64,000 nt of DNA from the human T2T-CHM13v2.0 reference genome, Homo sapiens, in the NCBI RefSeq assembly GCF_009914755.1, contig NC_060925.1; one strand, 5' to 3'. The position numbers and the translations under genes are program-made. This document shows, piece by piece, positions 25,477 through 35,130 of the stretch (the first letter of the stretch is position 1; every line of letters starts with the position of its first letter). The notes under the pieces were generated by a model, which worked only from the letters and a program-made list of their open reading frames with translations, was not told the DNA's origin and did no database searches.

Positions 25477-26814
25477 TGTTTTTAAATACTGGTGTAATTA
25501 CCCCAAAAAAGGCCTAAGGAGGCCTGCAGCCCGCCTCATGCATGCGACATTTAGCCTTAACAGCTTCACCAGCCCTCGGCCCTGTTTGCCACAGAAAAGC
25601 TGAAACCGCAGGTTTCTGAGTCAATTTACACCGCCCAATCCCTGACCTGCCCTCTTCCTGAGAGAGCCAACCAGAGGCCTCCAAGGCCCTGCCAAGGGAA
25701 CTCTGACCGGAAGAGCATCTCTGAGGCCTGCGCACAACACAAAACACCTAAGCAAGCCCAACTTGTGTCCTTGGTCTGAAGTCCCATCCTGAAAAGCCTG
25801 GTTAAACCAGAAATGAAACATACATGGTTTCCCAATGCTTCCCCTTCTGAGTCTCCAGTGAGGACAAGATTGCCATGAGGTTTTGTCTCCCTCTCCCAGT
25901 AACAGTAACAAGTGAAACAGGCAACTGGATATCAGGCAGGATCTTGGCTCCAGCCTCGAGTTGGTTCACGGAGCTTCTGTCTTCACCACGGAGGCCTCTG
26001 CCGATTCGCAGGGCAGGTCCACAGCTGACCGGTTTCACCACGACTGCTCCACGGCCACGGTCACCCGGAAGGCCCTGAGGAACTGCTCTTTGGTGATTTC
26101 AGGAGGTTATTTCCCTGCACATTTGCACAGATTCAGGACAAAACCCAACACTGCGGAGCCAGACAGTCTTCCTCTTGTTGGGGCATGTGAAGGGGCCACT
26201 GGCCTCTGGGTGGGACACTGATCCTAGAGAGGCCCACCTGCCCCTCTTGGACAAGCCCCACCCAGGTCCAGGAATTCTGCTCAACCTCTCTGGTTCCCAG
26301 TCACCCCCAGGACTGACAGAGGGTAGAAAGTGTCCTATCTTCCAGGATACATGGTATCCACTAGATCTCAGGAGTTCAGAAGTAGTTATTTTATAAACTC
26401 AGAGTTTAAGAAGATTTCTCAGGACGTGTCAGGCAACATGGTACACGCACAGAACCCCAAAGGAGCATCTCTCAGAATCTCCCTCAAGTACACGCAACGT
26501 AAATGATCACTGAGATGGACAATTTCAAATCTGAACCCGGTATCTGGAATGCAATTTTCCACCTGAAATTGGCATATCATCTGCACTGACTGCAGCCTGG
26601 AAGGCATCTACCCATTGAGCATCAGGACATCCCAGGTTCCTCCTGAAAACGTCACCCACCTTTAAGGGTTCTGACAAAGTGTCTGAAGAGCTCTCGATAG
26701 GAGTCCTGGTAGCGGCTAGCCTGGGTCTGGGAGCGAAGGGACAGGGACATGCCCCGCCCGGTGATGCCCAAGGAATTCTGATTCTCCATCTGCAGCACGC
26801 CTTGGGACCCACAC

Positions 26815-27790
26815 ACCCAGCTAACGACCTCTATCTAACCTGCGGAATCAACCCGGCTGACGACCTCTATCTAACCCGTACAATCAACCCAGCTGATGAC
26901 CTCTATCTAACCCATACAATCAACCCAGCTGATGACCTCTATCTAACCCACACAATCAACCCAGCTGATGACCTCTATCTAACCCACACAATCAACCCAG
27001 CTGATGACCTCTATCTAACCCACACAATCAACCCAGCTGATGACCTCTATCTAACCCACACAATCAACCCAGCTGATGATCTCTATCTAACCCACACAAT
27101 CAACCCAGCTGATGACCTCTATCTAACCCGCAGAATCAACCCAGCTGATGACCTCTGTCTAACCCACACAATCAACCCGGCTGACGACCTCTATCTAACC
27201 CACATAGTCAACCCAGCTGATGACCTCTATCTAACCTGCAGAATCAACCCAGCTGATGATCTCTATCTAACCCGCACAATCAACCCGGCTGATGACCTCT
27301 ATCTAACCCGCACAATCAACCCGGCTGATGATCTCTAACCCGCACAATCAACCCAGCTGACGACCTCTATCTAACCTGTAGAATCAACCCGGCTGATGAC
27401 CTCTATCTAACCCGCACAATCAACCCAGCTGACGACCTCTATCTAACCCACACAATCAACCCAGCTGATGATCTCTATCTAACCCACACAATCAACCCAG
27501 CTGATGACCTCTATCTAACCCGCACAATCAACCCGGCTGATGATCTCTATCTAACCCGCACAATCAACCCGGCTGACGACCTCTATCTAACCTGTAGAAT
27601 CAACCCGGCTGATGATCTCTATCTAACCCGCACAATCAACCTGGCTGATGACCTCTATCTAACCCACACAATCTACCAGGCTGATGATCTCTATCTAACC
27701 CACACAATCAACCTGGCTGATGACCTCTGTCTAACCCACACAATCAACCCGGCTGATGACCTCTATCTAACCCGCACAATCAACCCAGCT
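26815..27790 (+). repeat. 36-bp minisatellite (~27 copies) filling a GFOD3P intron
   Basis: Unit ACCCAGCTGATGACCTCTATCTAACCCACACAATCA. Confidence 0.97.
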
Positions 27791-28044
27791 TTTCACAGTG
27801 GACTGGCGAAGGGTGGAAAAGGGCAAGGGTCACCTCCAGTCTCTGGTCGCAGCTGTCTGTGCAGTGCTGGCTGACGTCCTGGTCGCAGCTGTCTGTGCAG
27901 TGCTGGCTGATGTCCACGCTAACCACGGCCTCACAGGGAAACTTCATGCTGATCACAACAGCATCTGCATCTTTTAAGGCGGCCATATCTAAGCAGAAGA
28001 AAACTTTAGATGATACAAAAGTTGATTTAGGCAAATGAGAAACT

Positions 28045-32130: not shown

Positions 32131-34129
32131 ATTTGCCAACTTTCCAAAAACACACAAAGCATTAACATTCACGAACGTTCTTCTGCAGTGGCAATGGGCT
32201 TTGCTGAGACACAACACCATCCGCTAATACGTTCAGAGCCCTCCACATGCGTTAACAACCTGGGGTCAAACTCTCCCCTTGCTACACTAGTAAGAGCATG
32301 TCCAAACCTGGACACACCAAAGGTGAGCCAGGCCTGACCTGTGAGCAGCACCGGCCAGCTCTGCGAAACACCAGGCAGTGCCCAGCCCAGGCCTGAACAC
32401 AGTGGCTGCGCCTGACCCCAAGGCTGGGTGGCTGCCCGCGAGCCCGTTTACCTGCTGTGGCTGTCCACACCCTGTGGACAGCAAGTATAGATGCTGCTCT
32501 AGCTGCTGGAGACACCGCTCATGAACAGGGTGGACATGTCACACCCAGCTGCTCGAGTGAAGGGAGGAAGCCAGGACCCCATTGCAAAGGCTGTACATTC
32601 AAAATATCCCAAATCCAGCCATACTGCTGCCCTGGTCCGGGCCCATCATGCCCCACTGGCCCCCCAATACCCCTCACTGGTGTCCCTGCGTCCTTCTCCT
32701 CCGCCCCCTGAGTGTGAGCTCAAACCAAACCAACCCCTGGCGGCTTTCAAAGCCTCCGGGTGGCCCCCAGGCTCCTTGGGCCTGGGACCTCCTTGCCTAG
32801 CCCTCACCCCATTCACTCCGTTCCTGCCAGCAGGGCCACTTGGCTACACCAAGGCCTGGAGAAGACTCAGTGTCCTCTTTGTAGAGTGTGCTCGTCCCCG
32901 GATGCCCCCACGGCCATCTCACTCACCCACCTAGGTCCCTGCTCCAATGCCCCCTCCTCAAGTCTTCCCCAGCCATCTCACCTAAAACAGCACTCCCACC
33001 AGCCTCCCTCTCCCGACTCAGCGTGAGTTCTCTCCGCAGAGCTTATTGCTACTGATGTGTTGAGATCTACGCATCTGCCTCTGCCCCCAATTCAGCAGCA
33101 CAAGCATGGGGACTTTGCAGCATTCAGAGCCATTTCTCCAGCCCCCAGGACGGTGCCCGGCACACAGCAGGTGTTCAGTGAACCTCTGCTGACAACTGAA
33201 ACCGTACCGCTGGTCGTTGAGGACAATGTCTGCATCCTGTTCCCGAACCACTCTGGTGTTGGCCCAAATGCTCAGCTCTGAAGGCTTGCTCCACATCACA
33301 CAGCTGGTCCTCCACCACGTACAGCAAGCAGCAGCTGTTCTCATCCACCACACTCTGCAGCAGTGCCGGGCTCCCGAAGCCCACCCCAAAGATGCCCAGG
33401 CCAAGGTGGCCAGCCACCCCGGCTCCAAAGTCACGAGAGCATCTCGGGCCTCCTCCGGGGAGCACCCTGTGGGAGGCTTCAGAAAAACTCTGGCTGGTCT
33501 GCTCTGAGGGCACTGCTGGTATCTTTACTTGGAAAGCAGGAAACACTGAAAGGTGGCCGGTGGAGGCAGATGGTGTTGCATCCTCCCGGGCAGACAAGTC
33601 GCTGGTGGTGGTGCTGATGGCAGGAGGGTTGACAGGGAGCAGAGACGTGTGGCCCACAGCGGGAGGAGGTACCGTGCCAATGCTGGGACTGCCTGAGAGA
33701 ATGAGCTGAGGCTGAGGCTGACGGGGCAAGGGCGGGTGGCACGGGTGTGCAGTAAGGCTGGTGGCAGCGAGATCCGAGGCGGCTGAGCTGGACAAAAGAC
33801 ACATTCACTTAAACAAAGTGGCAGGACTCACAGCACCCAGTCCACAATCATCTCAGAGGATCAACAGTGGGGAGTTACCCTACAGACCAGTATGTATCTG
33901 GCTTGTGATAAGGCAGCATTCAGGTGGCCACGCACACTTTAACAAAACTGCGAGACTTCACAGGGTTTACTCCCTAAGTAGGCAAGCCACTAGCAGATCC
34001 CGTAAACGTAGTGTCATCAGGCGGCCTGTCCACGTACTTTGGAAACGTTTGCAGGGCAGAGAATCCTAAAATAGCCCGCAGCCCGCTGGGATGACTCCTG
34101 AAACACCAGCGTTGGCACTGACATTTACA

Positions 34130-35130
34130 TGAGAATGGGCGTCCGCAGGCCGTGCTGCCTGCCCGAGGACAGGTGTTCCAGGATGCGGTCCCTCCGCACG
34201 CGCACGGGCAGCTCGCAGGCCCTGCAGTAAAGGGTCTCCACCACAGACGTGTCCCCAGAGTCACTGTGCTCAATCAGGTGCTTCACCACCAGGTCGGTGA
34301 ACTCCGCCGCGTAGTCGTGTAAAGCCTTCTTTTTCCCGCCCATTGTCGGGTCCGGGATGGAAACGGAAGCAGCCTCGACCCCCGACCGAGGGACCCGTGG
34401 GATCTGCGCTCACCGCCCTGCGAGCAGAGGCGTTCGTGTCGGAGCCCCCACACCTGGGGAGCGGGGAGCTGCGGTCCCTGGTTGTCCCACAGGAGAAGGG
34501 GGAGGGAACGGGGCAGGCGGGGAGGATGAGCGCTTCCGCGTGCAGCGGGGGCTGGAGTGGGTCCGTCCGAGCTGGAGTGGTCTCCGAGGGGCGGCGGATG
34601 CTCGGAGGGGGCGGATCCCTTAGGGCTGGGGGCCAGGACGATCCCACCCGGAGAAGCCTCGCGGGCGAGAAGAGGGTCCCTTCCTGCGGGGGCAGATGGA
34701 GGCGCGGGAGCCTTCCCCGGGAGGTGACCGAGGCCAGTCAGCGGCCCCGGGGACCCAAGGCCGGGGACTCTCGGCGGCCGGTGGACGGGCAGGGCCGGCC
34801 CGCCTGGGCAGGCGGCGGGGTGAAGGTGTCCAGGGCCTGAGGCGGCAAAGTGCCGCCGCCGTCAGCCCCGACTGCCACCCACCAGGCACCCGGCCCATCC
34901 CCGGCTCCCATCTAGGGATCCACACCCGGGCGCCGCGGCGCCGCGGTTTAAAGCCTGTGAGATCCCGCAACAACCCGGATCCGGAAGCGCGGGGTCGCGG
35001 CTGGGCGAGGGCAGGGGTGGGGCCTTCGGTGCAGACCCAGGGCCAAGTCGAGGGAGGCTCCGGGCGCGGGGCGGGGTCTTGGGCGTGGGGGCGGAGCCTG
35101 CGCGGGGCGTAGAGATCTGACGGGTCCCAG
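34130..35130. promoter_or_regulatory. CpG-island promoter of TP73-AS1/GFOD3P
   Basis: High CpG density; GC boxes (GGGGCGGGG ~35067-35076); ETS-like CCGGAAG at 34981-34987. Confidence 0.85.

What the first reader, a model, noticed from the sequence alone, without database searches (positions are those of the whole stretch)
25966..34343. The 'lncRNA' TP73-AS1 hides a lost zinc-finger/oxidoreductase fusion gene, possibly a metabolite-sensing nuclear regulator
Seen: exon 1 (34343-34129) encodes MGGKKKALHDYAAEF...LYCRACELPVRVRRDRILEHLSSGRQH. It ends in phase 2 (CTC AT|gtaaat) and joins in frame to the phase-2 acceptor at 33787. That exon reads through a ~125-aa Pro/Ser/Thr linker into a Rossmann start (LGIFGVGFGS...LLYVVED). 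Later exons give RHFDP, GGTFYNAAVHDVD, DQRLEV.GSQG and a C-terminal VKTE (SUMO consensus). Established: these are Gfo/Idh/MocA family motifs (IolG-like inositol dehydrogenases), and the locus is named GFOD3P. The finger resembles the CGGBP1 N-terminal finger (EF...LFCxxC...V..RK..I.DHLKSKTH). Yeast Gal80 is a precedent for this fold acting as a dinucleotide-binding transcriptional regulator. Inference: the ancestral protein combined nucleic-acid binding with NAD(P)/sugar sensing and was lost on the human lineage. I know of no functional description of this fused architecture.
Basis: partly seen in the sequence, partly recalled or inferred. Interest (0 to 1): 0.88.

Follow-up and report, generated by a model that had tools for sequence, protein, structure and literature searches.

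The report
Dead gene: transposon finger plus dehydrogenase
The human cancer-linked "non-coding RNA" TP73-AS1/GFOD3P is the wreck of an old vertebrate gene that joined a transposon-derived zinc finger to an inositol-dehydrogenase-like domain; the protein is still intact from sharks to marsupials and appears never to have been studied.

Summary
On the minus strand, 34343-25966 carries seven ancestral coding exons. They align end to end with intact orthologue models of 520-600 aa: sharks, ray-finned fishes, lungfish, amphibians, turtles, crocodile, birds, monotremes, marsupials, and three placentals (colugo, one bat, tree shrew).

The finger exon is fused to the oxidoreductase in 88 of 120 listed models. 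The Cys-x2-Cys-x13-His-x5-His ligands are invariant in 33 of 33 aligned sequences.

The human copy is dead. It has two in-frame deletions (one removes the second His), three frameshifts, three stop codons, a 36-nt duplication and a lost splice acceptor.

New here:
- Exon 1 is homologous, from the initiator Met, to the N-terminal finger of hAT transposases (E 1.7e-7; hhalign 97%). The gene is therefore an old host-transposase fusion.
- The IolG-type catalytic triad is complete in only 9 of 101 models, so most lineages probably keep a non-canonical or non-catalytic dehydrogenase fold.
- The published 201-aa "primate-specific microprotein" SP0495 matches, by length and position, a frameshift-truncated relic of exon 2.

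Pseudogene status is already annotated (GFOD3P). The metabolite-sensing regulator idea remains an untested inference.

The parts
34129..34343 (-). Ancestral exon 1: relic of the hAT-type C2H2 finger module (MGGKKK...CRAC...EHLSSGR-QH). Carries a 3-nt and a 27-nt in-frame deletion; the 27-nt one removes the second zinc-ligand His.
   Evidence: homology to the hAT transposase N-terminus
34125..34343 (-). 72-codon ORF plus stop: the first ORF of RefSeq NR_033712.1. It arises because the annotated exon reads through the ancestral donor at 34129.
   Evidence: 72-aa ORF at transcript offset 29; context gacaATGG
33208..33787 (-). Ancestral exon 2: disordered Ser/Pro/Thr-rich linker plus the start of the Rossmann fold (beta1, Gly loop, helix, beta2 ...LLYVVED). 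A 1-nt insertion at about 33264 shifts the frame before ANTRVVREQDADIVLNDQR.
33802..33804 (-). ATG in the 3' end of ancestral intron 1. The ORF from here through exon 2, spliced at 33208 to 30791, is exactly 201 aa, the published length of 'SP0495'.
   Evidence: length and description of SP0495 from PMC12071610 (passages)
30662..30972 (-). Ancestral exon 3: end of the Rossmann domain with the EKP-motif region, then KRFDP and the start of the C-terminal domain. Stop at 30882-30884; frameshifts near 30818 and 30702; the EKP stretch is unrecognisable. RefSeq uses an internal acceptor at 30791.
30405..30512 (-). Ancestral exon 4 (GGTFYNAAVHDVD...GHVFC): open, and the same as the RefSeq exon. Holds the position of the D-x3-H motif (N-x3-H in human).
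   Evidence: (PF22725 E 2.7e-4, below cut-off)
27834..27988 (-). Ancestral exon 5, with an in-frame 36-nt tandem duplication (27843-27915; D[IV]SQHCTDSCDQ twice).
26815..27790 (.). 36-nt minisatellite, 27.2 copies. It fills nearly all of ancestral intron 5 and abuts the exon 6 acceptor.
   Evidence: the periodic ORF is seen
26660..26816 (-). Ancestral exon 6 (VCGSQGVLQMENQN...FVRTLKG): the ORF is intact, but the acceptor dinucleotide at 26817-26818 reads GG, not AG. The nearest AG lies 4 nt upstream and would shift the frame.
25966..26114 (-). Ancestral last coding exon: in-frame stops at 26107-26109 and 26035-26037. Ends ...ASVVKTEAP + TGA (25966-25968); VKTE fits psi-K-x-E.

Best explanation
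GFOD3P/TP73-AS1 is the human unitary-pseudogene relic of a gene found across jawed vertebrates.

The product of the intact gene (about 520-600 aa) has five parts:
1. A compact N-terminal module of about 74 aa with one C-x2-C-x13-H-x5-H zinc finger and a basic MGRKKK start. It is encoded by exon 1 alone and is homologous to the N-terminal DNA-binding finger of hAT transposases.
2. A disordered Ser/Pro/Thr-rich linker of about 130 aa.
3. A Rossmann domain.
4. An IolG-like Gfo/Idh/MocA C-terminal domain.
5. A C-terminal [VI][IV]KTE tail.

Shown: this architecture, its conservation, the transposase kinship and the human lesions.

Inferred: the gene arose by capture of a hAT transposase first exon upstream of a stand-alone IolG-like gene, before cartilaginous and bony vertebrates diverged. 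The finger tethers the protein to nucleic acid, most likely DNA in the nucleus. The dehydrogenase fold supplies oligomerisation and binding of a dinucleotide and/or polyol.

The canonical Lys/Asp/His triad and the GxGxxG loop have decayed in most lineages while the rest stays conserved. I therefore think the fold acts in most vertebrates as a ligand-binding or scaffolding pseudoenzyme in the manner of Gal80 or CtBP, not as an inositol dehydrogenase. I give that step about 0.35, and architecture, origin and pseudogene status about 0.9.

In human the locus survives only as a transcribed lncRNA. Its short ORFs (72 aa and 201 aa) are fragments of the old protein.
For: Orthologues. The search with the human exon 2 ORF found intact models. 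The search with colugo P0003 gave 182 hits at E<=1e-5, of which 120 were listed. Of those, 115 are named vertebrates and 5 are unnamed.

Fusion. 93 of 120 models have the finger motif, and 88 of 120 have both the finger and KRFDP. Four unnamed records of 513-563 aa sit on contigs of only 2.3-3.0 kb. Three of them, P0020, P0068 and P0069, carry the finger. They must be intron-free, so they are probably transcripts that join finger and oxidoreductase (inference).

Conservation. C41, C44, H58 and H64 and the RRDRI.EHL stretch are invariant in 33 of 33 sequences. Mean pairwise identity by region is: finger 0.74, linker 0.31, Rossmann 0.67, C-domain 0.69. This used 29 of the 33 sequences; 4 isoforms were dropped.

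Fold. In the AF2 model, residues 1-74 have pLDDT 76-92 (helix, beta-hairpin, two helices). The linker 75-208 is at about 30 and the Rossmann domain at about 90. The finger alone gives mean pLDDT 71.5.

Family. PF01408, PF02894 and PF22725 score above their cut-offs in 5 of 5 orthologues. The best PDB sequence matches are 3ezy (9.4e-36), 4hkt (1.6e-31) and 3euw (3e-26). Foldseek puts the same entries on top.

hAT origin. The profile of the finger was searched against 1.84e9 proteins and gave 28 hits at E<=0.001.
- The non-orthologue hits include P0131 (600 aa, E 1.7e-7, aligned 1-75 to 1-77). It carries Pfam Dimer_Tnp_hAT at 39.6 bits against a cut-off of 21.4.
- There are 6 shorter fragments of the same kind and 4 finger+BTB proteins.
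- hhalign of A2 against P0131 gives probability 97.3%, E 2.5e-11, 44% identity over 70 columns starting at Met1.

Catalytic decay.
- Lys position: K 45, R 44, G 11, N 8, Q 2, S 1 of 111.
- Asp position: N 70, S 19, D 9, H 3, G 3, T 1, E 1 of 106.
- His position: H 96, F 7, L 2, Q 1 of 106.
- The full K/(D|E)/H triad is present in 9 of 101 models.
- The third Gly of GxGxxG is present in 0 of 94.
- An acidic residue at the end of beta2 is kept in 104 of 105.

The triad definition, and the link between loss of the Asp or an incomplete GxGxxG and inactivity, come from PMC9603128 (passages).

Human lesions.
Against: - All orthologues are computational gene models or unnamed records. No protein-level or functional datum exists for any of them in what I could search.
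- The counts are over models, with many birds and several isoforms. They are not independent lineages.
- The mapping of the motifs onto BsIolG Lys97, Asp172 and His176 rests on the printed alignments to 3ezy and 4hkt (FCEKP; GGIFLDMTIHD) plus my knowledge of the family, not on an alignment to BsIolG itself.
- Lys-to-Arg and Asp-to-Asn changes are conservative. They might support a different chemistry, so decay of the triad does not prove loss of catalysis.
- Pfam finds no zf-BED in the finger at E<=5. It finds only sub-threshold AKAP95 matches (E 0.0065-0.14) in 5 of 5 orthologues.
- Structure searches with the finger model are weak. Foldseek has no match at E<=0.001. The best VIA Z is 4.6, with spliceosomal and TUT U1/matrin-type fingers on top and the ZBED1 BED domain at only Z 2.3. 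An RNA-binding finger is therefore not excluded.
- The finger lacks the second ('Hermes') half of the hAT/CGGBP DNA-binding domain, which may be needed for sequence-specific binding (PMC8097297).
- The direction of transfer (transposon to host) is inferred, not shown.
Confidence: 0.75

Rival explanations
1. The intact protein is a working NAD-dependent inositol or sugar dehydrogenase. The finger and basic N-terminus only place the enzyme (for example in the nucleus or on chromatin), and the variant active-site residues support a modified but real catalysis.
For: - The closest relatives by sequence and fold are bacterial inositol dehydrogenases.
- Cartilaginous fishes and a lungfish keep the full K/D/H triad.
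- His is kept in 96 of 106 models and the beta2 acidic residue in 104 of 105.
- Substrate-side motifs such as KRFDP, SQHC and DQRLE are invariant or nearly so.
- The C-domain is as conserved as the finger: 0.69 against 0.74.
Against: - The Lys position is G, N, Q or S in 22 of 111 models, and the His position is F, L or Q in 10 of 106. These residues cannot act as the general acid/base.
- The third Gly of GxGxxG is present in 0 of 94 models.
- In C. glutamicum, a homologue lacking the Asp and a complete GxGxxG is inactive on inositols (PMC9603128, passages).
Confidence: 0.25
2. The N-terminal finger is a U1/matrin/AKAP95-type RNA- or protein-binding finger, not a DNA-binding BED-type finger. 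The protein would act on RNA or in ribonucleoprotein complexes.
For: - The His-x5-His spacing and the HL.S.RH.RN tail fit this type.
- Sub-threshold Pfam AKAP95 matches occur in 5 of 5 orthologues.
- The best VIA matches are spliceosomal and TUT fingers at Z 3.5-4.6, with JAZ and ZFa at Z 2.5.
Against: - All of these matches lie below the tools' own reliability marks.
- The only statistically significant kinship is to hAT transposase N-termini and to finger+BTB proteins.
- The ESM Atlas leads are zf-C2H2_12 (0.93) and zf-BED (0.91), not U1 types.
Confidence: 0.1
3. The human locus is not merely dead. Its relic ORFs (201-aa SP0495, 72-aa finger peptide) have been kept or re-used as functional small proteins.
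For: - Reviews report that SP0495 (201 aa) binds phosphoinositides, promotes autophagy and is silenced by methylation in tumours (PMC11437038 and PMC12071610, passages).
- The window contains a 201-aa ORF of matching length and a 72-aa ORF at the 5' end of the RefSeq transcript.
Against: - The 201-aa ORF starts at an ATG in the ancestral intron, consists of a disordered linker plus a broken-off half Rossmann fold, and ends through a frameshift. It would be a fragment unlikely to fold as its ancestor did.
- The hydrophobic beta1/Gly-loop segment could explain a predicted 'transmembrane' segment (inference).
- The 72-aa ORF lacks the second zinc-ligand His.
- I could not read the original paper, so the identity of the ORF with SP0495 rests on length and locus only.
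Confidence: 0.15
4. The fusion is an artefact of gene prediction: the finger exon belongs to a separate upstream gene or to a transposon copy.
For: - 27 of 120 models lack the finger.
- Human RefSeq transcripts do not splice 34129 to 33787 (hub annotation).
Against: - 25 of those 27 models are N-terminally truncated: 22 start inside the linker and 3 start inside the finger. One more has a long upstream extension, and only one (P0092) has a different N-terminus.
- The exon phases match in human.
- The finger is single-copy-like, lies next to the oxidoreductase exons in human, and is the most conserved part of the protein.
- Short contigs encode finger and oxidoreductase in one ORF.
Confidence: 0.02

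Closest known systems
Host-transposase fusion genes (transposase capture; Cosby et al., bioRxiv 10.1101/2020.05.07.082677) and hAT-derived DNA-binding proteins (ZBEDs, CGGBP1 and the CGGBPs of Yellan et al. 2021, PMC8097297)
   Same: A transposase DNA-binding module sits on its own exon and is spliced to host exons. The hAT N-terminal finger has Cys/His ligands and a Leu two residues before the first Cys (L39-x-C41), a feature named in PMC8097297. Homology begins at the transposase initiator Met.
   Different: The host partner is a metabolic-enzyme fold, not KRAB, SCAN or BTB. Only the finger half of the bipartite zf-BED + Hermes DNA-binding domain is kept.
IolG-type myo-inositol 2-dehydrogenases of the Gfo/Idh/MocA family (PDB 3ezy, 4hkt, 3euw, 3cea; B. 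subtilis IolG)
   Same: Two-domain fold, Pfam PF01408 + PF02894/PF22725, and the motifs FCE[K]., KRFDP, GGIF.....HD.D and DQR.EV.G..G.
   Different: About 210 extra N-terminal residues (finger plus linker). The EKP Pro is Leu in 110 of 111 models. The Lys/Asp/His triad is complete in only 9 of 101 models. GxGxxG is incomplete in all 94 scored.
Dehydrogenase-fold transcriptional regulators: yeast Gal80 (Gfo/Idh/MocA fold, binds NAD(P)) and metazoan CtBP (NADH-sensing 2-hydroxyacid-dehydrogenase fold). Recalled, not checked here.
   Same: A dinucleotide-binding dehydrogenase fold with dispensable or absent catalysis, used in gene regulation. This is the 'works like' model proposed here.
   Different: Gal80 and CtBP have no DNA-binding domain of their own and are recruited by partners; GFOD3 carries its own finger. 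No kinship beyond the family fold was tested, and no regulatory role is shown.
lncRNAs that are relics of lost protein-coding genes (Hezroni et al. 2017, PMC5577775; PMC10195156)
   Same: A conserved, transcribed lncRNA locus whose exons overlap the exons of an ancestral coding gene that stays intact in other vertebrates.
   Different: TP73-AS1/KIAA0495 is not named in either paper's text or held supplements. Here the relic ORFs have themselves been reported as a 'microprotein'.

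Membership tests
Gfo/Idh/MocA oxidoreductase family (Pfam PF01408 + PF02894/PF22725) | N-terminal Rossmann domain scoring above the PF01408 gathering cut-off | tested here: met
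   5 of 5 orthologues score above 24 bits (25.5-45.3). The human exon 2 translations alone give no Pfam match.
Gfo/Idh/MocA oxidoreductase family (Pfam PF01408 + PF02894/PF22725) | C-terminal alpha/beta domain (PF02894 / PF22725) above cut-off | tested here: met
   5 of 5 orthologues score 52-64 bits (PF02894) and 56-73 bits (PF22725). Human exon 4 alone scores 21.4 bits against a cut-off of 27.
Gfo/Idh/MocA oxidoreductase family (Pfam PF01408 + PF02894/PF22725) | Complete GxGxxG dinucleotide-binding loop | tested here: not met
   The third position is Gly in 0 of 94 models (S 49, N 34, D 6, C 3, H 1, Q 1). The first two Gly are both present in 68 of 94. The acidic residue at the end of beta2 is kept in 104 of 105.
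IolG-type inositol 2-dehydrogenase (as an enzyme) | Catalytic triad Lys97 / Asp172 / His176 in BsIolG numbering (PMC9603128) | tested here: not met
   The triad is complete in 9 of 101 models: 7 cartilaginous-fish records, lungfish P0040 and unnamed P0020. Colugo has R308/N386/H390. It is met in those 9 models only.
IolG-type inositol 2-dehydrogenase (as an enzyme) | NAD-dependent oxidation of myo-inositol or related inositols | not testable with these tools
   Needs an enzyme assay.
hAT-transposase N-terminal (BED-type) zinc finger | Cys2His2 ligands at fixed spacing, conserved across the family | tested here: met
   C-x2-C-x13-H-x5-H is present in 93 of 120 models and invariant in 33 of 33 aligned sequences. 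The hAT-type and BTB-type relatives align at the same four positions.
hAT-transposase N-terminal (BED-type) zinc finger | Significant sequence kinship to the N-terminus of a protein that carries a hAT transposase hallmark domain | tested here: met
   P0131 hits at E 1.7e-7 against 1.84e9 proteins. Its Pfam Dimer_Tnp_hAT match is E 4.6e-10, 39.6 bits against a cut-off of 21.4. hhalign gives 97.3%.
hAT-transposase N-terminal (BED-type) zinc finger | Match to the Pfam zf-BED model (PF02892) | tested here: inconclusive
   No zf-BED row at E<=5 in 5 of 5 orthologues, and none in P0131 at E<=0.01. The ESM Atlas gives leads only: zf-C2H2_12 at 0.93 and zf-BED at 0.91. PMC8097297 states that Pfam also misses CGGBP1.
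CGGBP family (bipartite zf-BED + Hermes DNA-binding domain; Yellan et al. 2021) | Hermes-type DNA-binding region following the finger | tested here: not met
   Homology to P0131 ends at about residue 73-75. From residue 75 the protein is a poorly conserved linker with pLDDT about 30.
CGGBP family (bipartite zf-BED + Hermes DNA-binding domain; Yellan et al. 2021) | Direct sequence similarity to CGGBP1 or a match to the PANTHER/InterPro CGGBP1 model | not tested
   No tool returned a CGGBP1 sequence or model. It was not among the 28 profile hits.
Unitary pseudogene | Disabling lesions in the coding exons | tested here: met
   3 stops (30882-4, 26107-9, 26035-7), frameshifts at about 33264, 30818 and 30702, a 27-nt deletion of a zinc ligand, and a lost exon 6 acceptor.
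Unitary pseudogene | Intact orthologue at the syntenic position in other species, and no intact copy elsewhere in the genome | not testable with these tools
   Intact orthologues exist, but no vertebrate genome with coordinates is held, so synteny and human paralogues were not checked.

The most novel reading that the evidence does not exclude
GFOD3 is a vertebrate transcription or chromatin regulator that carries its own transposon-derived DNA-binding finger on a flexible tether. It uses an oligomeric, catalytically decayed inositol-dehydrogenase fold to read NAD(H) and/or an inositol-like metabolite: a self-targeting analogue of Gal80 or CtBP, born by hAT transposase capture before sharks and bony vertebrates split. 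Its repeated loss in placentals, including primates and probably rodents, would explain why it has escaped study. It would also recast the heavily studied cancer lncRNA TP73-AS1 and its 'microprotein' SP0495 as debris of this regulator.
Probability: 0.25. Interest if true: 0.8.

Novelty: new variant of a known kind. Interest (0 to 1): 0.6.

Why it matters
- It defines an uncharacterised gene family found across jawed vertebrates with an unusual architecture: a domesticated hAT finger plus a metabolic-enzyme fold. None of the papers I could search describes it.
- It offers a natural series for asking how an enzyme fold turns into a non-catalytic module. Sharks and a lungfish keep the full catalytic triad; birds, frogs and mammals have decayed ones.
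- It adds an old, non-KRAB example to transposase capture.
- It changes how the large TP73-AS1 literature should be read. The transcript is a transcribed unitary pseudogene. The reported 201-aa SP0495, described in a review as primate-restricted with transmembrane and signal-peptide features (PMC12071610), would be a frameshift-truncated fragment of an ancient protein, not a new gene.
- Because human (and probably rat) lack the gene, the usual mammalian models would miss its function. Chicken, Xenopus, opossum or shark are the systems to use.

Tried and rejected
- Pfam on single human exon translations gave only sub-threshold or chance rows: Z280C/D finger E 0.092, Helitron_like_N, Toxin_7, AFP. 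It is not informative, because the human exons are too short and damaged.
- The profile of the finger against PDB sequences gave only a de novo designed protein (E 0.0073, matching the RKKKTLHDYAAE stretch) and ribosomal S26e (E 2.7). I rejected both as chance.
- Foldseek of the finger model against the PDB gave no match at E<=0.001.
- VIA-align wide gave a best Z of 4.6, below the tool's own mark for meaning. I use it only as a weak lead for the U1/matrin rival.
- Ankyrin and LRR proteins among the profile hits (P0130, P0132, P0140, P0142), and also P0139 and P0141, match through many repeated short stretches. I rejected them as repeat artefacts.
- The last word-index search, with the hAT protein's N-terminus against shorter proteins, found only two unnamed fragments. 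It gave no named CGGBP1-like record.
- The full-length AF2 model is poor in the C-terminal domain (pLDDT 30-50). I made no active-site geometry claims from it.
- The original SP0495 paper (PMC10154315) is not held.
- Earlier scan findings were not open.
- The ESM Atlas result for the oxidoreductase part lists arthropod and fungal stand-alone clusters next to bacterial ones. I use it only as a lead that the host part need not be a bacterial transfer.
- dN/dS per domain could not be run, because no orthologous coding DNA is held. Amino-acid identity per region served as a proxy.

Full report
**1. Observation**

The exon ends CTC AT|gtaaat and is 215 nt long. Joined to the C at 33787 (after ...tgtccag) the frame continues as I-SAASDL..., through a low-complexity stretch, into LGIFGVGFGSPALLQSVVDENSCCLLYVVED.

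RefSeq's human transcripts use other sites: donor 33888, and acceptor 33782, which is 5 nt inside the exon and out of frame. The ancestral splice is therefore not annotated in human (hub table).

**2. Orthologues**

The exon 2 ORF, used as a query for longer proteins, found four records:
- colugo, 557 aa
- wombat, 577 aa
- an N-truncated ostrich model
- a broken gibbon model

The colugo protein then found 182 proteins at E<=1e-5, of which 120 are listed. 115 of them bear vertebrate names; 5 are unnamed. The named ones cover sharks, a skate, bichir, sturgeon, gar, bowfin, eels and tarpon, an elephantfish, lungfish, caecilians, frogs, axolotl, turtles, a crocodile, many birds, both monotremes and marsupials.

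Only three are placental: colugo, the bat Hipposideros, and a 362-aa tree-shrew isoform. No squamate or clupeocephalan teleost is among the 120 listed. The other 62 hits were not shown, so I make no claim of absence.

Source names vary ('myo-inositol 2-dehydrogenase-like', 'StrI-like', 'YrbE-like', 'T73AS protein'), and none is a functional study.

**3. The fusion is real**

- 93 of 120 models have C-x2-C-x13-H-x5-H in the first 140 residues.
- 88 of 120 have both the finger and KRFDP.
- Of the 27 without the motif, 22 start inside the linker (mostly 'partial' bird records), 3 start at a Met inside the finger, one has a long upstream extension, and one (P0092) has another N-terminus.
- Three unnamed finger-bearing records of 555-563 aa lie on contigs of 2.3-2.9 kb. 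These can only be intron-free, so they are probably transcripts (inference).

In a 33-sequence alignment from cartilaginous fish to mammals, C41, C44, H58 and H64 are invariant. So are M1-G2-R3, Y11-A-A-E-F15 and R51-R-D-R-I55.

The finger module is the most conserved region. Mean pairwise identity is 0.74, against 0.31 for the linker, 0.67 for the Rossmann domain and 0.69 for the C-domain. This used 29 of the 33 sequences; four isoforms with missing or alternative exons were dropped.

AlphaFold2 with this alignment gives three zones:
- a confident N-terminal domain: residues 1-74, pLDDT 76-92, with a helix, a beta-hairpin and two helices
- a disordered linker: 75-208, pLDDT about 30
- a confident Rossmann domain

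The C-domain is poorly modelled.

**4. What the two halves are**

*Oxidoreductase half.* PF01408, PF02894 and PF22725 score above cut-off in 5 of 5 orthologues. The best solved relatives are inositol dehydrogenases: 3ezy at 9.4e-36, 4hkt at 1.6e-31 and 3euw at 3e-26. Foldseek agrees.

*Finger half.* Pfam gives only sub-threshold AKAP95 rows. A profile of 18 N-termini (A2) was searched against 1.84 billion representatives and gave 28 hits at E<=0.001.
- I take the ten best (E<=2e-16) for orthologues or relics. Three are known from earlier calls; I did not read the other seven.
- P0134 is another mammalian-looking relic.
- Seven of the rest are hAT-type. P0131 is 600 aa, E 1.7e-7, aligned 1-75 to 1-77, and has a Pfam hAT dimerisation domain above cut-off. 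Six shorter fragments share the same N-terminus.
- Four carry the same module in front of a BTB/POZ domain.
- Six are repeat or unclear matches that I reject.

hhalign of A2 against P0131 gives 97.3% probability, E 2.5e-11 and 44% identity over 70 columns beginning at Met1. The shared pattern is visible in the alignment: a basic MGRK(K/R)KT start, D(Y/W)AAEF, (L/V)xCxxC and DRIxEH(L/I)ASxRH.

The homology covers exon 1 and stops before the exon 1/2 junction. I could not test it directly, and GFOD3 lacks the Hermes half.

**5. Active site**

In the printed alignments, FCERPPS pairs with FCEKP, and GGIFYNAAVHDVD pairs with GGIFLDMTIHDFD, in both 3ezy and 4hkt. BsIolG's triad is Lys97/Asp172/His176 (PMC9603128, passages). 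The mapping of these motifs to those numbers is from my knowledge of the family.

| Position | Residues found | Models scored |
|---|---|---|
| Lys | K 45, R 44, G 11, N 8, Q 2, S 1 | 111 |
| Asp | N 70, S 19, D 9, H 3, G 3, T 1, E 1 | 106 |
| His | H 96, F 7, L 2, Q 1 | 106 |

These counts come from the 120 models. The full triad occurs in 9 of 101 models: seven cartilaginous-fish records, the lungfish and one unnamed record. The third Gly of GxGxxG is never Gly (0 of 94), while the beta2 acidic residue is kept in 104 of 105.

The same paper links a missing triad Asp and an incomplete GxGxxG with lack of inositol dehydrogenase activity. Models are not independent lineages, and Arg or Asn might still serve some chemistry, so this is suggestive and not proof.

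K[TA]E occurs within the last eight residues in 104 of 120 models. Reading it as a SUMO site is an inference.

**6. The human copy**

| Ancestral exon | Human lesion |
|---|---|
| 1 | Lacks one codon, and 27 nt encoding HYRNRRLVR with the second His |
| 2 | 1-nt insertion at about 33264 |
| 3 | Stop at 30882-30884; frameshifts near 30818 and 30702; EKP region unrecognisable |
| 5 | 36-nt duplication |
| 6 | GG where the acceptor AG should be |
| 7 | Stops at 26107-26109 and 26035-26037 |

Sources.

The gibbon model keeps the 27 nt (read in another frame) and reads exon 2 in frame, but it is shifted inside exon 1. At least some lesions are therefore lineage-specific.

**7. Relic ORFs**

The ORF from the ATG at 33804 (in the ancestral intron), through exon 2 and two codons of the next RefSeq exon, is exactly 201 aa. 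A review gives SP0495 as 201 aa, encoded by KIAA0495/TP73-AS1. It describes transmembrane and signal-peptide features and conservation restricted to primates at its >85% identity filter (PMC12071610, passages). The original paper is not held, so the identity is inferred from length and locus.

If it is right, SP0495 is the linker plus half a Rossmann fold of a gene shared by jawed vertebrates.

**8. Literature**

- 'GFOD3P' occurs in 2 papers, both in passing.
- 'GFOD3' occurs in none.
- The vertebrate annotation names lead only to two Lactobacillus papers.
- 'TP73-AS1' with 'pseudogene' and 'oxidoreductase' gives 4 papers, of which 3 are listed. Judging from their titles and abstract starts only, none looks relevant.
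- Two papers on lncRNA relics do not name the locus in their text or held supplements.

The pseudogene status itself is already in RefSeq/HGNC naming.

**9. Verdict**

- Observation: confirmed.
- Architecture, transposase origin of exon 1 and human pseudogenisation: well supported.
- Sensor or regulator function: a reasoned but untested hypothesis.

This is a new variant of known kinds (host-transposase fusion; dehydrogenase-fold pseudoenzyme), of moderate to high interest.

Noticed in passing
window 26815-27790: A 36-nt minisatellite (27.2 copies, 91% matches) occupies almost the whole ancestral intron 5 of GFOD3P. It ends exactly at the lost acceptor of ancestral exon 6. On the plus strand it reads as a long periodic ORF (INPADDLYLT...).
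   Followed up: partly
window 27843-27915: An in-frame 36-nt tandem duplication inside ancestral exon 5 (D[IV]SQHCTDSCDQ twice). It has the same period as the neighbouring minisatellite but a different unit.
   Followed up: partly
window 34125-34343 (minus): The first ORF of RefSeq NR_033712.1 is a 72-aa relic of the finger module, in a good start context (gacaATGG). It ends at a stop just past the unused ancestral donor. It could be translated as a small peptide that lacks the second zinc-ligand His.
   Followed up: no
window 33208-33804 (minus), spliced to 30791: A 201-aa ORF that matches the published length of the 'microprotein' SP0495. It starts in the ancestral intron and ends through the human exon 2 frameshift. 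Its hydrophobic LGLGIFGVGFGSPALL segment is Rossmann beta1 plus the Gly loop.
   Followed up: partly
proteins P0135, P0136, P0143, P0145 (representatives library): The same hAT-type finger module sits N-terminal to BTB/POZ domains in four unnamed proteins. These look like separate captures of this finger by a classical transcription-factor partner.
   Followed up: partly
proteins P0063, P0093, P0101: 362-aa isoform models in tree shrew, rhea and a caecilian join the finger exon directly to exon 3 (…LL|VSGV…), skipping the linker and the start of the Rossmann fold. This may be a conserved alternative isoform without an intact dinucleotide-binding domain.
   Followed up: no
window 23585-23802: By the hub annotation, the 3' end of GFOD3P transcripts overlaps the 3' UTR of TP73 tail to tail. 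I could not check whether the intact gene in other vertebrates shares this antisense overlap.
   Followed up: no
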